The position numbers were made by a program, and so were the translations under genes. From assembly GCA_964532095.1 (NCBI GenBank), contig CAZHGK010000005.1, positions 1-45,764 on the forward strand: a DNA stretch of 45,764 nucleotides, given 5' to 3'. Below the pieces are notes generated by a model, which was not told the DNA's origin, searched no databases, and worked only from the letters and a program-made list of their open reading frames with translations. Source of the stretch: an uncultured Planctomycetales bacterium. Lineage in GTDB: Bacteria > Omnitrophota > Gorgyraeia > Zapsychrales > Fredricksoniimonadaceae. Of the stretch, positions 21,091 through 31,041 are shown in pieces (position 1 is the stretch's first letter; every line of letters begins with the position of its first letter).

Positions 21091-22749
21091 TTAATGAGCA
21101 ATTTTTTCTTTTACCGGGTTATTGACATAATTTTCGTACTCATGCCTGAAGTATTTTAACGTACTTAATAATGGGTTTGGTGCTGACATCCCCAAACCAC
21201 ACAGGCTGGTTTCCTTAACTAAAAAAGCCAACTCTTCTAATTTCTTTAAATCTTCAGGCGTTGCTTGACGCGCACAGATCTTAGTTAACAGGTCATACAT
21301 CATCTTAGTGCCCACCCTGCAGGGAACACATTTGCCGCATGACTCATCCATACAAAATTCCATGAAAAACTTAGCCACATCCACCATGTCCGAAGTATCA
21401 TCCATAACAATCAGACCACCTGACCCCATGATGGAACCTAAGGCCACCAAGGATTCATAATCGACTTTTACGTCGAGGAATTCCTTAGGAATGCACCCTC
21501 CAGAAGGCCCTCCTGTTTGGGCTGCCTTAAAATCACGTCCCCCTGGAATTCCTCCTCCAATATCAAAGACAATTTCCCTTAAGGAAGTCCCCATGGGCAC
21601 TTCAATTAATCCTGAATAATTAATTTTTCCTGCCAGAGCAAACACCTTGGTTCCGGCACTCTTTGGGGTACCAATATCGCTATACCATTCCCCACCATTT
21701 TTTATAATGGGGGTAATTGAGGCGAAGGTTTCCACATTATTAATCAATGTCGGCTTCCCCCATAACCCTACTTCAGCAGGAAAAGGTGGCCGGGGGCGCG
21801 GCGTTCCTCGCTTTCCTTCAATAGAGGCAATTAATGCTGTCTCTTCTCCACAGACAAACGCCCCGGCACCAATTCGAATTTCCACATCAAAATTAAACGT
21901 ACTTCCTAAGATACTTGTTCCTAATAAGCCCAATTTCCTGGCTTGTTTAATAGCCATTTCAAAACGTTTAATGGCCAGTGGATATTCCCCGCGGATGTAA
22001 ACAAAACCCTGGCTAGCTCCGACGGCATAACCCGCAATGGCCATGCCTTCTAACACACGATGGGGATTCCCTTCCAAAACGCTGCGGTCCATAAACGCGC
22101 CAGGATCACCTTCATCCCCATTACAAATGATATATTTCTGGTCAGCCACATATTTGTAAACCGTTTCCCACTTAATGCCCGTCGGGAAACCTGCACCGCC
22201 CCTGCCACGCAAACGGCTATGCTTAATCTCTGCAATCACCTCTTCACTGGACATTTGAAATAAAACCTTATCCAGAGATTTATAACCTCCATTGACAATA
22301 AAATCCTCAATAAATTCAGAGTTAATATCGCCGCAATTCCTTAAAACAATCTTCATTTGCTTCTTAAAAAATGGATCTTGCGATGAATCTAGAAACACCT
22401 TTTCTCTCGAATCAACAAACAAGACCTTGGCTTCAATTGGCTTCTTTTCAATAATTTGGCTTTGCACGATGGGAACAACATCTTCCTCTTTAATTTTTTG
22501 ATAAATTGTATTTTCCGGCATCACCTTAACAAGAGGCCCTTGGTTGCAAGGCCCCATGCAGCCTGTAGGAATGACTTCTACTTCATTTTCCAAACCTTTT
22601 TCTTTAACTTCGCTTTGAAGTTTCTTTAACACTGCCTCTCCACCGGACGTTAAACAGCTTGCCCCACAGCACACACAAACTTTTTGCTTAAATTGGCTTT
22701 TCTTGGCCGCCACTTGGTCGGCAATTGTTTTTAGGTCTTGACGATTCAT
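21091..22749 (-). CDS. hoxF: diaphorase NAD(P)H/FMN-binding subunit HoxF (NuoF-like)
   Basis: 552 aa. N-terminal thioredoxin-like 2Fe-2S domain, [17 protein letters not shown] site, [10 protein letters not shown] 4Fe-4S site. Confidence 0.92.
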
Positions 22750-27723: not shown

Positions 27724-28698
27724 TTAAATCTTTAAATTTTCTTTTGTTTCTTTACTATATTTCTCTTTTACTTTCTTGAGGAAAAATATAATGTTGCCAT
27801 TTTCTTCTTTTTTCTCAAAATTTATTATTATTTGTGAACTATAAACACTTGGGTCAATTTTAGATTCCCCCTCGTATCTAGCTGTTAAAATTATTTGTAA
27901 CGCCACCGCTGCACTATTATTCTTTAACTTAGAAATATTAATTTCGGGAACAAAATTTGTTACAATGTTTCCCATTCCATCAGAGGATAATTGCCCCACT
28001 CCTTCGGGATTCTCAATCAATACTCCTGGTTGAATAGTGTCAATCCTTCCAGCCGAATCAATCCAAAAACTATCATATTTTAATTCAACGTTTTGAGCCG
28101 GTATTTTTCCCTTATTTATTAAATTAAAACTTAAATACATTTTCTCTTCATTGGAGTAAACAAAATAAAACATCCCGTTCTGTATTTTTATATTACCACC
28201 TGGTTTTAACCAAAAAACTAAATAAGGTCGGTATTCCATCTGAAGCGCTGCGATCTTATGTTCAGTGTTCTGTTTTTCGGTATTTGCTGATCTCTCTGCG
28301 CTGTTAAAGCCTAACCATGTAATAAATGCTATAAAAATAGTAGCTATAGCCATAAAAATATTGGTTAATTGTGGAATAAATCTGTCCGGATTCCATCTAA
28401 ACCAGATACTTGTAAAAAATGAAACAAAAGCAATTATCAAAAATAAATACTTAAATGAATGCTTTAAAACAATTACATTTGAGAAGCACATACAAAACAT
28501 ACAAATAAATACAAGCATACTTATAATTAAAAAAGGCTTGCTGCGGATGATTCTTTTGATTTTACTTAAATCTTGATTCATATTAAAAATATGTTTTGAA
28601 CAGAATTCATATCCATTTTTAGCATTATTCTTACAAGGATTGCCTTTTTGAGTCAAAGCTTTACATTTTGTATTATCGTTTGTAGTAGGAGTGTTCAT
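27724..28698 (-). CDS. hypothetical membrane protein with N-terminal Cys/His zinc-ribbon-like motif
   Basis: 324 aa. CKALTQKGNPCKNNAKNGYEFCSKH (C-x9-C-x11-C-x2-H), three TM helices, then a roughly 170-aa beta-rich C-terminal domain. Confidence 0.65.
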   Translation of the reverse strand: MNTPTTNDNTKCKALTQKGNPCKNNAKNGYEFCSKHIFNMNQDLSKIKRIIRSKPFLIISMLVFICMFCMCFSNVIVLKHSFKYLFLIIAFVSFFTSIWFRWNPDRFIPQLTNIFMAIATIFIAFITWLGFNSAERSANTEKQNTEHKIAALQMEYRPYLVFWLKPGGNIKIQNGMFYFVYSNEEKMYLSFNLINKGKIPAQNVELKYDSFWIDSAGRIDTIQPGVLIENPEGVGQLSSDGMGNIVTNFVPEINISKLKNNSAAVALQIILTARYEGESKIDPSVYSSQIIINFEKKEENGNIIFFLKKVKEKYSKETKENLKI

Positions 28699-28794
28699 AT
28701 TAAAAAGTTATTCAACAAACAAGGATGAGTCATATAAATTTAAAACACCTTGCCAACCTATCAGTTGGATTATATACTTTAAATAGCTTTTAAG

Positions 28795-28890
28795 GATCGG
28801 GGTGTCTCCCGGTCGAAATTTACCAAAGGTTCCGCCTCGATGACAAGGGCCCAAGGGGCCCTCTCGTAAGAGTAGTCGAGGCGGTCGCAT
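28795..28890. ncRNA. GC-rich multi-hairpin element immediately 3' of the DUF3800 CDS (candidate structured RNA)
   Basis: About 59% GC by hand count, against about 27% in the preceding 90 nt. It contains a 7-bp hairpin at 28795-28814 and a 9-bp enclosing helix (28832-28840 with 28876-28884) around GGGCCC-AAG-GGGCCC (28847-28861) and a small CTCT/AGAG hairpin. Two non-Watson-Crick positions are G-U on the plus strand but C-A on the minus strand. Confidence 0.4.
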
Positions 28891-28892
28891 TT

Positions 28893-29564
28893 TTAGTAAT
28901 ATAACGTCGTTCCTGCCCGAAATATATTAAATTCACTCTTAATAACCTTCTTTATTCCTTCGTAAGACCTTAAATCGTTAATTTCCCATTTGCGATAAAT
29001 CGCCCAATTGCAGTAATCAACAATTTGTAAATCAAAATTTGATTTTGAAGCATGATGGAATATTTCATAAACTACCCCAGGTGGAAGCATTTCGGCTAGG
29101 AATATCTTTATAGCCTTTTCTATTGCCTTCTTTTTACGCTGAACAGGAATGTTATCCGTAAAAATAATCACTTTTGCAAATTGATTTAGATCGTACCCTT
29201 TTATTACATAACTCAATAAATACTTTAACATTTCTGGGTAAAACCTTGTTTCATCTCTTAAGGCTGGTCCTGTCTTACGTTTTTCAACAATTAAGCTATC
29301 AATACGGGTCTGATCAATATATCTATGGATTATATCAAATACCCCGTTTCTTACTGCCTGGGTATCCTCTGCTGCATGAAAGGCCTCAATCTCAACGCCT
29401 AATTCAATAAGATCGTATTTTAATTCACATAAATGCTTATATGCCTCGAATGGTCGTTCTTTTGAAAGGCTCGTTAAAGTAAAATATTTAGTCCCTCCAT
29501 TCGAAAAGTCTAAATTACCGCCCTCATCTAAGAAAATATAAAGAATTTTTTTCTTCTCTAACAT
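28893..29564 (-). CDS. DUF3800 domain protein
   Basis: 223 aa. N-terminal ILYIFLDEGGN (DUF3800 hhhDESG-type motif), FHAAED, and C-terminal SKSNFDLQIVDY (LQxxD). The acidic residues are spaced compatibly with an RNase H-like fold, which is my inference. Confidence 0.75.
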   Translation of the reverse strand: MLEKKKILYIFLDEGGNLDFSNGGTKYFTLTSLSKERPFEAYKHLCELKYDLIELGVEIEAFHAAEDTQAVRNGVFDIIHRYIDQTRIDSLIVEKRKTGPALRDETRFYPEMLKYLLSYVIKGYDLNQFAKVIIFTDNIPVQRKKKAIEKAIKIFLAEMLPPGVVYEIFHHASKSNFDLQIVDYCNWAIYRKWEINDLRSYEGIKKVIKSEFNIFRAGTTLYY

Positions 29565-29633
29565 TAATATTCCCTCAAACTTAAATTTCGATAATTATAG
29601 TATATTCCTCACCGTTTAATACAACTTTTCTTC

Positions 29634-29716
29634 TGCGCGCGATCGGCCCAGACCCCTTCCGCTCCGTCAAAACCTATGGTTGAGTGGGAGGGGTCTGGGG
29701 TGATGCTTCGCGCGCA
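29634..29716. ncRNA. 83-nt GC-rich long hairpin between the integrase and DUF3800 genes (candidate structured RNA)
   Basis: About 65% GC. A 9-bp basal helix (29634-29642 with 29708-29716) and an 18-bp upper helix (29647-29664 with 29682-29699). The upper helix is continuous on the plus strand with two G-U pairs, which become A-C mismatches on the minus strand. Confidence 0.4.
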
Positions 29717-29761
29717 TTCCGTCAAATTCCTTTGTGAATCATTGACTTATGAATCAGTAAA

Positions 29762-29809
29762 TCTACATTTTTTCTACATTTTGTAGAACTTTTGTAGACT
29801 TTTTGTAGA
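29762..29809. repeat. five phased TCTACA/TGTAGA hexamers (iteron/operator-like array)
   Basis: TCTACA at 29762 and 29773; TGTAGA at 29782, 29793 and 29804. Spacing is mostly 11 bp, each hexamer has a T4-5 flank, and the central pair forms the palindrome TCTACATTTTGTAGA. Confidence 0.55.
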
Positions 29810-29810
29810 T

Positions 29811-30836
29811 TTAAAAATTTAGCTTCTCAACCGCCTTATCTACATGCTCATCAGCCAAGTGAGAATAAACCATGGTGGTTTCGATGTCTGCATGGCCTAA
29901 TAGCTTCTTGACCGTAGGCAAGTCCACTCCGCTCATAATCAAATGACTTGCAAATGTATGCCTGAGTGTATGAATCTTGGTTACATCCGAAAAACCATGT
30001 TCTGTACTTATACGCATTAATTGTTTACGCAAATAGTTAGGATCAACCTTCTCTCCCTTGCGATGAAAGACATAGGGACAAGTATCAGCTTTTTGCTTCT
30101 GATTTACCAGCACTTCCATTAAACCATTATGAATTGGAATTTCACGTTCGGACGTTTTTGGACTCCAATCATCCTTATAACGAATTTTGATTTTCTTGCG
30201 CTGAAAATCTACATCGCTCCAAGTGAGATTTTCCAATTCACTTTTGCGCATACCGGTATGAAGAAAGGTATAGAAAATTGGATAAAGCCACTCACCGCAA
30301 TTTTCTAAAAGAGCCTTGGACTCTTCTTTGCTTAAGAACCGTGGCTTTTTGTTAGCTTCTTCTTTGAGGTCTTTAATCCCTTTAACAGGATTCTCTTTAA
30401 GATAACCCCAGCGCATACCGAGATAAAACATTGCTTTTAAACAAATCAATTCAATATTGATTGTTTTGTTAGCAGCGCCTTTTTTCTTGCGATAAGCCTG
30501 ATAATCTTCAAAAAATTTGGAATTTAGTTGGGATGTCTTTTTGATGAATGGAGATTTGTTTAGGAATTCTTTGAAATTATCGAGGATGGCTGAATAACGT
30601 CTTTGTGAGGATGGTGCATGGTGGGTTTTGCTGTAGACTAGGTATTCTTCAAACAATTGGTTTAATTCAATGTCTTTTTCAACAAAACCAATTTCTTGTC
30701 GCTCTAGCTTTACTTCAATGTCCTTTAATGCTAATTCCGCTGTTTTCTTTGATTTGCCTATGGCCTTACGGACTCTTTGGCCGTTGACACGATAATCAAT
30801 AAAATACCGACCAGCTTTAAATCTGAGACTTGCCAT
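29811..30836 (-). CDS. int: tyrosine recombinase / phage-type integrase
   Basis: 341 aa. HTGMRKSEL (Arg I), HTLRHTFAS (H-x-x-R) and GHADIETTMVYSH (His/Tyr). Adjacent to the tRNA-Ser 3' end. Confidence 0.92.
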   Translation of the reverse strand: MASLRFKAGRYFIDYRVNGQRVRKAIGKSKKTAELALKDIEVKLERQEIGFVEKDIELNQLFEEYLVYSKTHHAPSSQRRYSAILDNFKEFLNKSPFIKKTSQLNSKFFEDYQAYRKKKGAANKTINIELICLKAMFYLGMRWGYLKENPVKGIKDLKEEANKKPRFLSKEESKALLENCGEWLYPIFYTFLHTGMRKSELENLTWSDVDFQRKKIKIRYKDDWSPKTSEREIPIHNGLMEVLVNQKQKADTCPYVFHRKGEKVDPNYLRKQLMRISTEHGFSDVTKIHTLRHTFASHLIMSGVDLPTVKKLLGHADIETTMVYSHLADEHVDKAVEKLNF

Positions 30837-30861
30837 AAAAAACCCCCTTGTTGATGATTGT

Positions 30862-30882
30862 TGGGCACTTTTTGGGCACCAT
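30862..30882 (+). repeat. arm-type repeat pair (TGGGCAC x2), right arm
   Basis: TGGGCACTTTTTGGGCACCAT lies between the int start and the att core, 73 bp inside the right repeat. Confidence 0.55.
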
Positions 30883-30951
30883 CATCTTTAAGGGGGGTCA
30901 AGATGTTTGTAACTAATAATAAAATAATCAGTTACAAAATGCAATTAAAAC

Positions 30952-31041
30952 TGGCGGAGAGGGAGAGATTCGAACTCTCGATACCCTTTCAGGTACACAC
31001 GCTCTCCAGGCGTGCGCCTTCAACCACTCGGCCACCTCTCC
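30952..31041 (-). tRNA. tRNA-Ser (anticodon GGA), CCA encoded
   Basis: Hand-folded as GGAGAGG acceptor stem, anticodon stem CACGC/GCGTG with loop CTGGAGA, a long variable arm, and T-arm GAGAG-TTCGAATC-CTCTC. 90 nt. Confidence 0.9.
30955..30973. repeat. attR-type direct repeat inside the tRNA-Ser 3' end
   Basis: Identical 19-mer to 25896-25914. Confidence 0.85.

What the first reader, a model, noticed from the sequence alone, without database searches (positions are those of the whole stretch)
28795..28890. Element A: multi-helix GC-rich element whose wobble pairs favour the strand antisense to the genes
A 9-bp helix (CCGCCTCGA/TCGAGGCGG) encloses a GGGCCC-AAG-GGGCCC hairpin and a small CTCT/AGAG hairpin. 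A separate 7-bp hairpin (28795-28814) precedes it. Two non-canonical positions are G-U on the plus strand but C-A on the minus strand, which suggests the functional RNA is read from the plus strand, convergent with or antisense to DUF3800. The 60-aa track ORF here (28708-28890) has a low-complexity Arg/Pro/Gly-rich N-terminus and looks like a by-product of the GC-rich structure.
Basis: seen in the sequence. Interest (0 to 1): 0.6.

Follow-up and report, generated by a model that had tools for sequence, protein, structure and literature searches.

The report
Small RNA partnered with DUF3800 nuclease
The GC-rich element is the conserved three-helix core of a small non-coding RNA, read from the strand opposite a DUF3800 (RNase H-like) gene, that accompanies this gene across many bacterial phyla, plasmids and phages and matches no RNA family in Rfam 15.

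Summary
Window 28825-28894 (+) is a three-way-junction RNA with helices P1 (9 bp), P2 (6 bp) and P3 (3 bp plus a GNRA loop). It has invariant unpaired AAAGGU, UGAYAAG, UAG and GGUC, then a U-run that overlaps the stop codon of the convergent DUF3800 gene.

All 80 DUF3800 relatives fetched from many phyla carry it in the same place. 99.3% of cells pair, and 14 of 18 pairs show compensatory change.

Six lines of evidence put the RNA on the + strand:
- G-U against A-C counts of 20:3 and 36:6.
- GNRA loops in the variant P3 helices.
- The conserved 3' U-run.
- Promoter-like sites enriched upstream on that strand.
- Rfam DUF3800-V and DUF3800-VIII motifs lying 4-15 nt 5' of it on the same strand.
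- Co-orientation with neighbouring genes in phages.

No Rfam 15 family matches it. The 60-aa ORF is a by-product. The 28795-28814 hairpin is a lineage-specific 5' leader.

The gene-plus-RNA pair often sits inside type I restriction-modification operons. It also occurs in Gordonia phage Kenna and on Phaeobacter and Ruegeria plasmids. Copies without DUF3800 occur in phage contigs.

Most likely it is the cognate RNA partner, regulatory or antitoxin-like, of the RNase H-like DUF3800 protein. That mechanism is inferred, not shown.

The parts
28750..28778 (+). Predicted sigma-70-type promoter of the small RNA: TTGCCA (28750-28755), 17 nt, TATACT (28773-28778). The implied start is near 28785.
   Evidence: Best promoter-like site in 28500-29900, 10 of 12 matches. 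The same TATACT-TTAAAT box is present in L001. Across 169 instances such sites are enriched on the RNA strand. The start site is not measured.
28795..28814 (+). 5' leader hairpin, 8 bp including two G-U pairs, loop UGUC. It is a lineage-specific variable module.
   Evidence: Fold -12.1 kcal/mol on + against -7.4 on -. An identical copy occurs only in L219-L221, next to an 82%-identical DUF3800. It is absent from the other loci, so there is no covariation evidence.
28825..28831 (+). Conserved 5' single strand: invariant AAAGGU (28825-28830) plus one variable base (28831) before P1.
   Evidence: A5 A6 A7 T10 invariant and G8 G9 at least 90% in 81 sequences. Kept in the metagenome consensus. In some loci a -10 box lies 5-9 nt upstream, so the RNA can start here.
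28832..28840 (+). P1 5' arm, CCGCCUCGA.
   Evidence: Pairs with 28876-28884. 99.3% paired, 7 of 9 pairs with compensatory change.
28841..28846 (+). Junction J1/2, UGACAA (family consensus UGAYAA, followed by the first G of P2).
   Evidence: Nearly invariant unpaired bases.
28847..28861 (+). P2 hairpin, GGGCCC-AAG-GGGCCC.
   Evidence: 99.4% paired, 4 of 6 pairs with compensatory change.
28863..28872 (+). P3 hairpin, CUC-GUAA-GAG, with a GNRA tetraloop.
   Evidence: All 3 pairs covary, 99.2% paired. Loops are GAAA, GCAA or GUAA in most sequences, and longer variants still end in GNRA.
28873..28875 (+). Junction J3/1, invariant UAG.
   Evidence: T53 A54 G55 invariant in 81 sequences.
28876..28884 (+). 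P1 3' arm, UCGAGGCGG.
28885..28894 (+). 3' tail UCGCA followed by U5. Probable end of the transcript; overlaps the DUF3800 stop codon by 2 nt.
   Evidence: UC and the T-run are at least 90% conserved. The strict terminator scan did not call it, because the structure is branched.
28893..29564 (-). DUF3800 gene, 223 aa, RNase H-like. The partner gene, convergent with the RNA.
   Evidence: Pfam PF12686, E 2e-10. PADLOC DUF3800_VII, E 7e-9. AlphaFold model pLDDT 87, closest to RNase HII 1eke and RNase H2A 3puf, E about 2e-5 to 4e-5. Invariant D13 E14, D137, Q180 and D183.
28708..28890 (-). 60-aa ORF. Not a gene; a by-product of the GC-rich element.
   Evidence: Start codon kept in 3 of 80 homologues, frame interrupted in 61 of 80, no conservation beyond the element. 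No Pfam match.

Best explanation
Element A is the conserved core of a small non-coding RNA of roughly 70-110 nt. The RNA is transcribed from its own promoter on the + strand, convergent with the DUF3800 gene, and ends at a U-run that overlaps the DUF3800 stop codon.

The core is a three-way junction with strictly conserved unpaired nucleotides: 5' AAAGGU, UGAYAAG, UAG and 3' GGUC. Upstream of the core the RNA carries a variable leader. In this window the leader is a hairpin. In other lineages it is the Rfam DUF3800-V motif, the DUF3800-VIII motif, another structure, or nothing.

DUF3800 and this RNA form a compact two-part module. The module moves between phyla and settles in defence contexts: type I restriction-modification operons, integrative islands, plasmids and prophage immunity regions.

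Inferred mechanism. The RNA folds and is bound through its invariant junction by the RNase H-like DUF3800 protein. It acts as the protein's cognate regulatory partner, most simply as an antitoxin-like inhibitor that holds the nuclease in check. Phage-borne copies without DUF3800 would then be mimics that neutralise the host protein.

Shown here: the structure, the strand, the conservation and the genomic linkage. Inferred only: transcription, protein binding and any effect on the nuclease.
For: **Linkage**
- 80 of 80 DUF3800 relatives from many phyla carry the element directly after the stop codon.
- In a pattern-first metagenome sample, 47 of 69 assessable copies have a convergent DUF3800 ending 0-40 nt from the RNA 3' end in nearly all cases. 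At least three more have a distant Pfam DUF3800, one of them weak.
- The pair is kept at 27% protein identity in Gordonia phage Kenna (59.3 bits).
- It is also kept on Phaeobacter and Ruegeria plasmids.

**Structure**
- 99.3% of cells pair, 14 of 18 pairs show compensatory change, and 0 of 500 shuffles reach this. Slid controls pair at 40-58%.
- An independent metagenome set gives 98.3%.

**Selection**
- The core is 88-97% identical between loci where third codon positions of the adjacent gene are only 43-47% identical.

**Strand**
- G-U against A-C is 20:3 and 36:6.
- GNRA loops.
- Promoters on the RNA strand in 71 of 169 instances, against 11 and 13 in the controls.
- The window promoter matches 10 of 12 positions.
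- Rfam DUF3800-V and DUF3800-VIII lie 4-15 nt 5' on the same strand.
- In L219 the model scores 98.2 bits on this strand and 16.3 on the other.

**Protein**
- RNase HII-like fold, with Argonaute PIWI domains as the next matches.
- DUF3800 was already linked to diverse ncRNAs (PMC5737381).

**Defence context**
- hsdM lies upstream in 28 loci and hsdR downstream in 21.
- In the window the gene follows the island integrase.

**Copies without DUF3800**
- Phage contigs carry such copies next to terminase and portal genes.
Against: - No expression data. The start and end of the RNA are predicted only.
- Nothing here shows that the protein binds or cuts the RNA. Co-location could reflect co-inheritance.
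- About a quarter of pattern-found copies lie beside other genes (DUF5131, Bro-N, DUF4238, Y1 transposase-like, AIPR) or stand alone in phages. The RNA may therefore work without DUF3800.
- The arrangement differs from known protein-binding antitoxin RNAs, which are tandem repeats upstream of the toxin gene on the same strand.
- No toxicity of DUF3800 has been reported in the papers read.
- The 80 genome loci were chosen by the protein, so 80 of 80 measures how often this protein subfamily has the RNA, not the reverse.
Confidence: 0.55

Rival explanations
1. Pure antisense regulator. The convergent RNA acts by base-pairing with the 3' end of the DUF3800 or operon mRNA, as in type I toxin-antitoxin pairs that overlap at their 3' ends. 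It would change mRNA stability or read-through into the next gene, with no protein binding.
For: Convergent arrangement with the RNA 3' end at or over the stop codon. In type I restriction-modification operons the element lies between co-oriented genes, so the operon mRNA must contain its complement.
Against: Base-pairing in cis needs no conserved fold. Here the helices covary while the unpaired junction bases are invariant across phyla. Copies exist in phage genomes with no DUF3800 mRNA to pair with. DUF3800 is a 223-aa soluble enzyme-like protein, unlike type I toxins.
Confidence: 0.14
2. Programmable ribonucleoprotein. Element A is a constant protein-binding scaffold. The interchangeable 5' domains (hairpin, DUF3800-V, DUF3800-VIII, others) give target or ligand specificity to the RNase H-like nuclease, broadly as a guide-plus-scaffold RNA does.
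For: A constant 3' core follows highly diverse 5' regions: 169 instances fall into 134 sequence clusters. Two different Rfam DUF3800 motifs are fused 4-15 nt upstream of the same core. The fold is related to RNase H and PIWI.
Against: Many copies have a promoter only 5-9 nt before AAAGGU and so almost no 5' domain. Much of the diversity upstream may simply be unrelated flanking DNA. The known 5' motifs are themselves structured, not unstructured guides.
Confidence: 0.12
3. Autonomous RNA of mobile elements. On this reading its association with DUF3800 is only positional, for example a processing, stability or packaging-related RNA, or an undiscovered ribozyme.
For: Copies without DUF3800 in phage contigs, several beside terminase or portal genes. 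Other neighbours in some metagenome loci. Two tandem copies in L138.
Against: The same convergent geometry with DUF3800 is kept from 86% down to 27% protein identity and in very different hosts. That is hard to explain without a functional link. No match to any ribozyme or riboswitch family in Rfam 15.
Confidence: 0.1
4. Only a transcription terminator, sense or bidirectional, or a 3'-UTR stabiliser of the DUF3800 mRNA.
For: A GC-rich structure directly after the stop codon, with an A-run on one side and a T-run on the other. Stable on both strands.
Against: Terminators do not keep invariant loop and junction bases across phyla. On the sense strand only UUU follows the stem, several bases away. 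The wobble asymmetry favours the antisense strand. The terminator scan found none. The element also occurs far from any DUF3800 gene. It may well terminate its own transcript, which fits the main explanation.
Confidence: 0.05
5. A DNA-level site: a folded single-stranded recombination site such as an integron attC, or another cassette boundary that explains the mobility of the module.
For: The DUF3800-RNA unit appears as a small insert in many unrelated contexts. In the window it lies next to an integrase. G-T pairs are also tolerated in folded DNA.
Against: No attC-type GTTRRRY / RYYYAAC boxes are visible (by eye). Promoter enrichment, the U-run, GNRA loops and fusion to known RNA motifs all point to RNA. 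The element lies inside the unit, not at both of its ends.
Confidence: 0.03
6. A small protein: either the 60-aa ORF on the - strand, or an 11-codon ORF on the + strand running from (A/G)UG in UGAYAAG to the invariant UAG.
For: An SD-like AAAGG lies about 10 nt before the AUG at 28840-28842. The peptide from the - strand ORF looks conserved over the element.
Against: For the - strand ORF: the start is kept in 3 of 80, stops occur in 61 of 80, and there is no conservation beyond the element. For the + strand micro-ORF: the start codon is lost in sequences with GUAA, AUAA or GCGA, and P2 or P3 indels of 1, 2 or 4 nt shift the frame. Substitutions are compensatory in helices, not synonymous in codons.
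Confidence: 0.01

Closest known systems
DUF3800-associated RNA motifs DUF3800-I to -XI (Weinberg et al. 2017, PMC5737381; Rfam e.g. RF02964 DUF3800-V, RF03075 DUF3800-VIII)
   Same: A structured, covarying small RNA encoded next to DUF3800 genes, often on mobile elements, sometimes followed by a U-run. Function unknown. In L031, L063, L067 and L068 the known V or VIII motif lies 4-15 nt upstream on the same strand.
   Different: Its fold and sequence match none of the Rfam 15 models, in the window at E up to 10, in 40 genome loci, in 12 viral loci, or in the cultured examples. [quoted passage not shown]
Type III toxin-antitoxin systems (ToxIN, AbiQ, CptIN): an RNA antitoxin that binds a nuclease toxin
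   Same: A compact nuclease-plus-structured-RNA pair on mobile elements and in defence contexts. Phage-encoded RNA look-alikes are known to neutralise ToxN (established knowledge). That parallels the copies without DUF3800 seen in phage contigs.
   Different: ToxI-type RNAs are tandem repeats upstream of the toxin on the same strand, cut by a ToxN-fold RNase. Here there is a single three-way junction, convergent with the gene, and an RNase H-like protein. Toxicity and binding are untested.
Type I toxin-antitoxin pairs with convergent 3'-overlapping antisense RNA (e.g. Bacillus txpA/RatA, bsrG/SR4)
   Same: The small RNA is transcribed convergently and reaches the 3' end of the protein gene.
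   Different: The overlap with the coding region is only a few nucleotides. The protein is not a small membrane peptide. The RNA's fold and junction bases are conserved, which pairing alone does not need.
Retron type VII (reverse transcriptase + ncRNA + DUF3800 effector; PMC7736814)
   Same: A DUF3800 protein working beside a structured ncRNA in a defence system. The window protein hits the PADLOC DUF3800_VII model.
   Different: No reverse transcriptase among the neighbouring genes scanned. The RNA has no msr/msd-like long inverted repeats.
Accessory genes embedded in type I restriction-modification operons (e.g. anticodon nuclease PrrC in the prr locus)
   Same: DUF3800 plus its RNA is inserted between hsdM and hsdS or hsdR in many loci, as latent defence nucleases are (established knowledge).
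   Different: PrrC has no RNA partner. No interaction between DUF3800 and the restriction enzyme is known.

Membership tests
DUF3800-associated structured RNAs (class, Weinberg 2017) | Recurrent genomic association with genes encoding PF12686 (DUF3800) | tested here: met
   80 of 80 protein-first loci. 47 of 69 assessable pattern-first metagenome copies, plus at least three more with a distant DUF3800, one of them weak. Phage Kenna, Phaeobacter and Ruegeria.
DUF3800-associated structured RNAs (class, Weinberg 2017) | Conserved secondary structure supported by covariation | tested here: met
   99.3% paired, 14 of 18 pairs compensatory, 0 of 500 shuffles reach this, slid controls 40-58%. Second set 98.3%.
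Any specific Rfam DUF3800-x family (I, V, VIII, IX and the others held in Rfam 15) | Scores at or above the family's covariance-model gathering threshold | tested here: not met
   No hit on the element on either strand in the window, even at E up to 10. None in 40 genome loci, 12 viral loci or 4 further loci. The V and VIII hits lie beside the element, not on it. I could not read the drawings in the 2017 supplement, so a motif left out of Rfam cannot be excluded.
Rho-independent terminator | Simple GC-rich hairpin followed at once by a U-tract | tested here: inconclusive
   A conserved U-run lies 2-5 nt after P1 on the + strand. The structure is a three-way junction and the scan called no terminator.
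Type III toxin-antitoxin RNA antitoxin | Tandem direct repeats upstream of, and co-oriented with, a ToxN/AbiQ-fold endoribonuclease gene | tested here: not met
   Single copy in the window, convergent orientation, and a protein with an RNase HII-like fold.
Type I toxin-antitoxin antisense RNA | Antisense RNA overlapping the mRNA of a small hydrophobic toxin peptide | tested here: not met
   The partner is a 223-aa DUF3800 protein whose AlphaFold model is an RNase HII-like alpha/beta domain. Overlap with the coding region is 2 nt.
Retron (type VII) ncRNA | Adjacent reverse-transcriptase gene | tested here: not met
   The neighbouring ORFs are an integrase, DUF3800 and proteins with no Pfam match; none is a reverse transcriptase.
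Integron attC site | Terminal R''/R' boxes (RYYYAAC ... GTTRRRY) flanking an imperfect hairpin at a cassette 3' end | tested here: not met
   No such boxes at the ends of the element. The conserved ends are AAAGGT and GGTC. Checked by eye only.
Known self-cleaving ribozymes and riboswitches | Match to the family covariance model | tested here: not met
   No Rfam 15 match. Catalysis and ligand binding are not testable with these tools.

The most novel reading that the evidence does not exclude
Element A would be the common protein-binding scaffold that unites the puzzlingly diverse DUF3800 RNAs. DUF3800 proteins would be RNase H/PIWI-like effectors loaded with a modular RNA: a constant three-way-junction handle plus interchangeable 5' sensing or targeting domains such as DUF3800-V and DUF3800-VIII. 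Phages would carry bare copies of the handle as RNA decoys against this defence.
Probability: 0.15. Interest if true: 0.9.

Novelty: new member of a known kind. Interest (0 to 1): 0.62.

Why it matters
DUF3800 proteins are widespread on mobile elements and in defence loci, including retron type VII, Cas12a2/Cas12a3 and Cas13 accessory genes. They have been known since 2017 to sit beside eleven unrelated structured RNAs, and no function has been found for protein or RNA.

This element adds four things:
- A strongly conserved RNA shared by one large DUF3800 subfamily across many phyla.
- A firm strand and a fixed geometry, convergent and ending at the stop codon.
- A physical link to two of the known motifs, which sit 4-15 nt (V, VIII) upstream of it on the same strand in four loci. 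That suggests a modular RNA with a common core.
- Cultured, tractable carriers: Ruegeria sp. TM1040, Phaeobacter piscinae P14 and Gordonia phage Kenna.

Phage contigs carry the RNA without the gene, which hints at an arms race. Together these make the open question of what DUF3800 and its RNAs do directly testable.

Tried and rejected
- **Rfam 15.** Scanned the whole window at gathering thresholds, 28600-29900 at E up to 10, and 56 related loci. Only tRNAs, DUF3800-V, DUF3800-VIII and abiF RNA came up, all beside the element and never on it.
- **Extra copies in the window.** None. A second model hit at 21558-21625 (11.7 bits, E 0.45) is taken as chance.
Worse than CUC-GNRA-GAG.
- **UNCG loop on the sense strand.** The common loops also read as UUCG, UGCG or UACG on the gene strand, so they do not settle the strand. 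Only the lengthened variants do, and they fit the + strand.
- **60-aa ORF and an 11-codon + strand ORF.** Both rejected.
- **Element B (29625-29722) as a second part of the system.** No similar sequence in any fetched locus, DUF3800-bearing or not, so it is not part of this unit.
- **5' hairpin conservation.** Found only in L219-L221, and identical there, so there is no covariation to weigh.
- **Supplementary files of the 2017 paper.** Not held.
- **blastn of the 86-nt element against GenBank phages.** Nothing useful. The phage Kenna copy was found through the protein and the covariance model instead.
- **Literature on DUF3800 function.** Only fold predictions and associations; no mechanism.

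Full report
**What is in the window**

The region lies in an AT-rich island. On the minus strand the order is:
- tRNA-Ser(GGA), 30952-31041
- a tyrosine integrase, 29811-30836
- a GC-rich hairpin, about 29630-29715
- a 223-aa DUF3800 gene, 28893-29564
- the finding, 28795-28890
- a 324-aa gene with no Pfam match

These are CCGCCTCGA/TCGAGGCGG (28832-28840 with 28876-28884), GGGCCC-AAG-GGGCCC (28847-28861), a small hairpin, and an upstream hairpin at 28795-28814. The upstream hairpin has two G-U pairs on the + strand. Both strands fold better than shuffles (z -4.1 and -4.4), so folding energy alone does not settle the strand.

**Homologues**

The DUF3800 protein has hundreds of close relatives (60-86% identity) in very different phyla. 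I fetched 80 loci from one-genome-per-species contigs. They include Omnitrophota, Chlamydiota, Verrucomicrobiota, Planctomycetota, Desulfobacterota, Elusimicrobiota, Acidobacteriota and Proteobacteria.

Every one of the 80 carries the same element directly after the DUF3800 stop codon. On the strand antisense to the gene, which is the window + strand, the consensus is:

AAAGGU-N-[P1 5']-UGAYAA-[P2 hairpin]-U-[P3 hairpin]-UAG-[P1 3']-UC(R)-UUUUU.

**Structure test**

On the 81-sequence alignment, P1 (9 bp), P2 (6 bp) and P3 (3 bp) pair in 99.3% of cells. 14 of 18 pairs show changes on both sides. No shuffle in 500 reaches the observed values. Sliding the partners by 1-3 columns drops pairing to 40-58%.

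A second, independent set came from a sequence-pattern search of metagenomes and was aligned to the model. It gives 98.3% pairing, with 13 of 18 pairs compensatory.

The element core is 88-97% identical between loci whose DUF3800 third codon positions are only 43-47% identical. It is therefore under its own purifying selection.

**Which strand**

Six observations agree on the window + strand.

1. Wobble asymmetry. There are 20 G-U cells against 3 A-C cells in the genome set, and 36 against 6 in the metagenome set.
2. P3 loops. They are GAAA, GCAA or GUAA. The common form could also be read as a UNCG loop on the gene strand. The lengthened P3 variants, however, end in GNRA only on the + strand.
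3. A conserved U-run follows GGUC on this strand.
4. Promoters. Sigma-70-like sites lie in the 120 nt upstream on this strand in 71 of 169 instances. The opposite strand has 11 and shuffles have 13. At 10 of 12 matches or better the counts are 38, 1 and 8. The window has TTGCCA-17-TATACT at 28750-28778, the best site in the region.
5. Known RNAs alongside. Rfam DUF3800-V in L031, and DUF3800-VIII in L063, L067 and L068, lie 4-15 nt upstream of the element on the same strand.
6. Phage contexts. In phage contigs the RNA, so oriented, mostly runs with its neighbouring genes.

**The ORF and the 5' hairpin**

The 60-aa ORF is not conserved as a gene. Its start codon is kept in 3 of 80 homologues. 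Its frame carries a stop within 35 codons in 61 of 80. Similarity ends where the element ends.

The 28795-28814 hairpin recurs only in L219-L221, beside an 82%-identical DUF3800, and is identical there. The region upstream of the core is otherwise very diverse: 169 instances fall into 134 sequence clusters. The distance from the predicted -10 box to AAAGGU runs from 5 to 91 nt. So the RNA has a constant 3' core and a variable leader that is sometimes absent. In this window the leader is that hairpin.

**Is it known?**

Weinberg et al. 2017 reported eleven mutually dissimilar DUF3800-I to -XI RNA motifs of unknown function. Some are followed by terminators (PMC5737381).

Element A hits no Rfam 15 family in any of these searches:
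- the window at E up to 10
- 40 genome loci
- 12 viral loci
- four further loci: two plasmids from cultured bacteria, phage Kenna and metagenome locus L219

I could not read the 2017 supplement. A motif left out of Rfam, or a drawing of this element as a 'terminator', cannot be excluded.

I therefore file it as a new member of the known class of DUF3800-associated RNAs, not as a member of any named family. It has one new feature: it is a shared core behind different 5' motifs.

**Context and spread**

The gene-plus-RNA pair is a compact unit found in many settings.
- It lies inside type I restriction-modification operons, with hsdM directly upstream in 28 loci and hsdR about 180 nt downstream in 21. 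In L219 the order is hsdM-DUF3800-RNA-hsdS.
- It also lies after housekeeping genes.
- In this window it lies next to an island integrase.

In the pattern-first metagenome sample there were 76 hits, 69 of them assessable. 47 have a convergent DUF3800, whose end lies 0-40 nt from the RNA 3' end in nearly all cases. At least three more have a distant Pfam DUF3800, one of them a weak match. The rest face DUF5131, Bro-N, DUF4238, a Y1 transposase-like gene or AIPR.

In IMG/VR, 18 contigs carry the RNA and only 4 have a close DUF3800. The others are phage contigs with terminase or portal genes nearby.

Three cultured carriers were found.
- Gordonia phage Kenna. Gene 54 is a 27%-identical DUF3800 in the immunity region, and the RNA scores 59.3 bits, overlapping the gene's 3' end.
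- Phaeobacter piscinae plasmid pP14_b, 71.6 bits.
- The Ruegeria sp. TM1040 megaplasmid, 61.1 bits.

**The protein**

The AlphaFold model (pLDDT 87) is closest to RNase HII (1eke) and human RNase H2A (3puf), at E about 2e-5 to 4e-5. Argonaute PIWI domains are the next matches. This agrees with published predictions (PMC7736814, PMC10910872). The acidic residues D13, E14, D137 and D183, and Q180, are invariant in the subfamily. No paper in the library assigns a function.

**Mechanism**

Shown here:
- a covarying three-way-junction fold on the + strand
- invariant junction bases
- a fixed convergent geometry with DUF3800, kept from 86% down to 27% protein identity
- its own promoter-like sites and U-run
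- defence and mobile-element contexts
- copies in phages without DUF3800

Inferred: the RNA is made as a discrete small transcript and is the cognate partner of the RNase H-like protein. The invariant unpaired bases are most easily explained as a protein-recognition surface.

The simplest working model is an antitoxin-like or regulatory RNA that restrains the nuclease, with phage copies as mimics. I put about 0.55 on 'cognate RNA partner of DUF3800', and less on the antitoxin detail.

Rivals, in order of weight:
- a purely antisense regulator
- a programmable scaffold with interchangeable 5' domains
- an autonomous mobile-element RNA
- a mere terminator
- a DNA site
- a peptide

**Verdict**

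It is a new, widespread member of the DUF3800-associated RNA class, and it gives that unexplained class a common core and tractable experimental systems.

Noticed in passing
window 29625-29722: A second GC-rich long hairpin ('element B') between the integrase stop and the DUF3800 start. It folds at -60.8 kcal/mol on the + strand against -49.0 on the - strand (z -7.4 and -5.9). No Rfam match, and no similar sequence in any of the fetched loci.
   Followed up: partly
window 29745-29812 and 29811-31041: The island looks integrated at tRNA-Ser(GGA) (30952-31041, -), with a tyrosine integrase next to it. Just after the integrase stop there are short direct and inverted repeats of TCTACAAAA / TGTAGA, possibly integrase arm sites.
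   Followed up: no
L008, L040, L049, L051, L058, L062, L064, L109 (about 20-90 nt 5' of element A on the RNA strand): A conserved GC-rich leader, about GGCGUCGCGGGGUAUCCCGCUCAGGUGG, shared by eight mostly verrucomicrobial loci. No Rfam match in the seven that were scanned. It may be a further undescribed 5' domain of these RNAs.
   Followed up: partly
L138 466-540 and 721-796 (both - strand): Two tandem copies of the RNA about 180 nt apart in one metagenome contig, with no DUF3800 detected nearby.
   Followed up: no
L089 1429-1545 and L095 6480-6596: Phage-contig copies in which P3 is replaced by an insertion of about 45 nt, giving a 117-nt RNA. The junction bases are kept.
   Followed up: no
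L083, L085, L092, L096 (viral contigs): Copies of the RNA without DUF3800 lie near terminase large-subunit or portal genes in phage contigs: next to them in L083, L085 and L092, and about 2.5 kb away in L096. In L094 the RNA lies 300 nt upstream of two tRNA genes.
   Followed up: partly
L064 3815-3851 (+): An abiF RNA motif (RF03085, 43.7 bits) about 335 nt beyond element A, in a locus where DUF3800 is embedded among defence genes.
   Followed up: no
L222 (Gordonia phage Kenna, NC_048141, genes 53-56): The distant DUF3800 (gene 54) overlaps the end of the annotated transcriptional repressor gene 55 and lies near a Rha-like regulator. That is the usual place for prophage-expressed defence genes. 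The RNA region is unannotated.
   Followed up: partly
window 21558-21625 (-): A weak hit of the element A model (11.7 bits, E 0.45) that shares only the GUGCCCAUGGGG hairpin. Probably chance.
   Followed up: no
window 27724-28698 (-): The 324-aa ORF transcribed divergently from the RNA promoter has no Pfam match. Its only other hit is a weak one to a PADLOC CARF-linked transmembrane model (E 0.0015). Function unknown.
   Followed up: no
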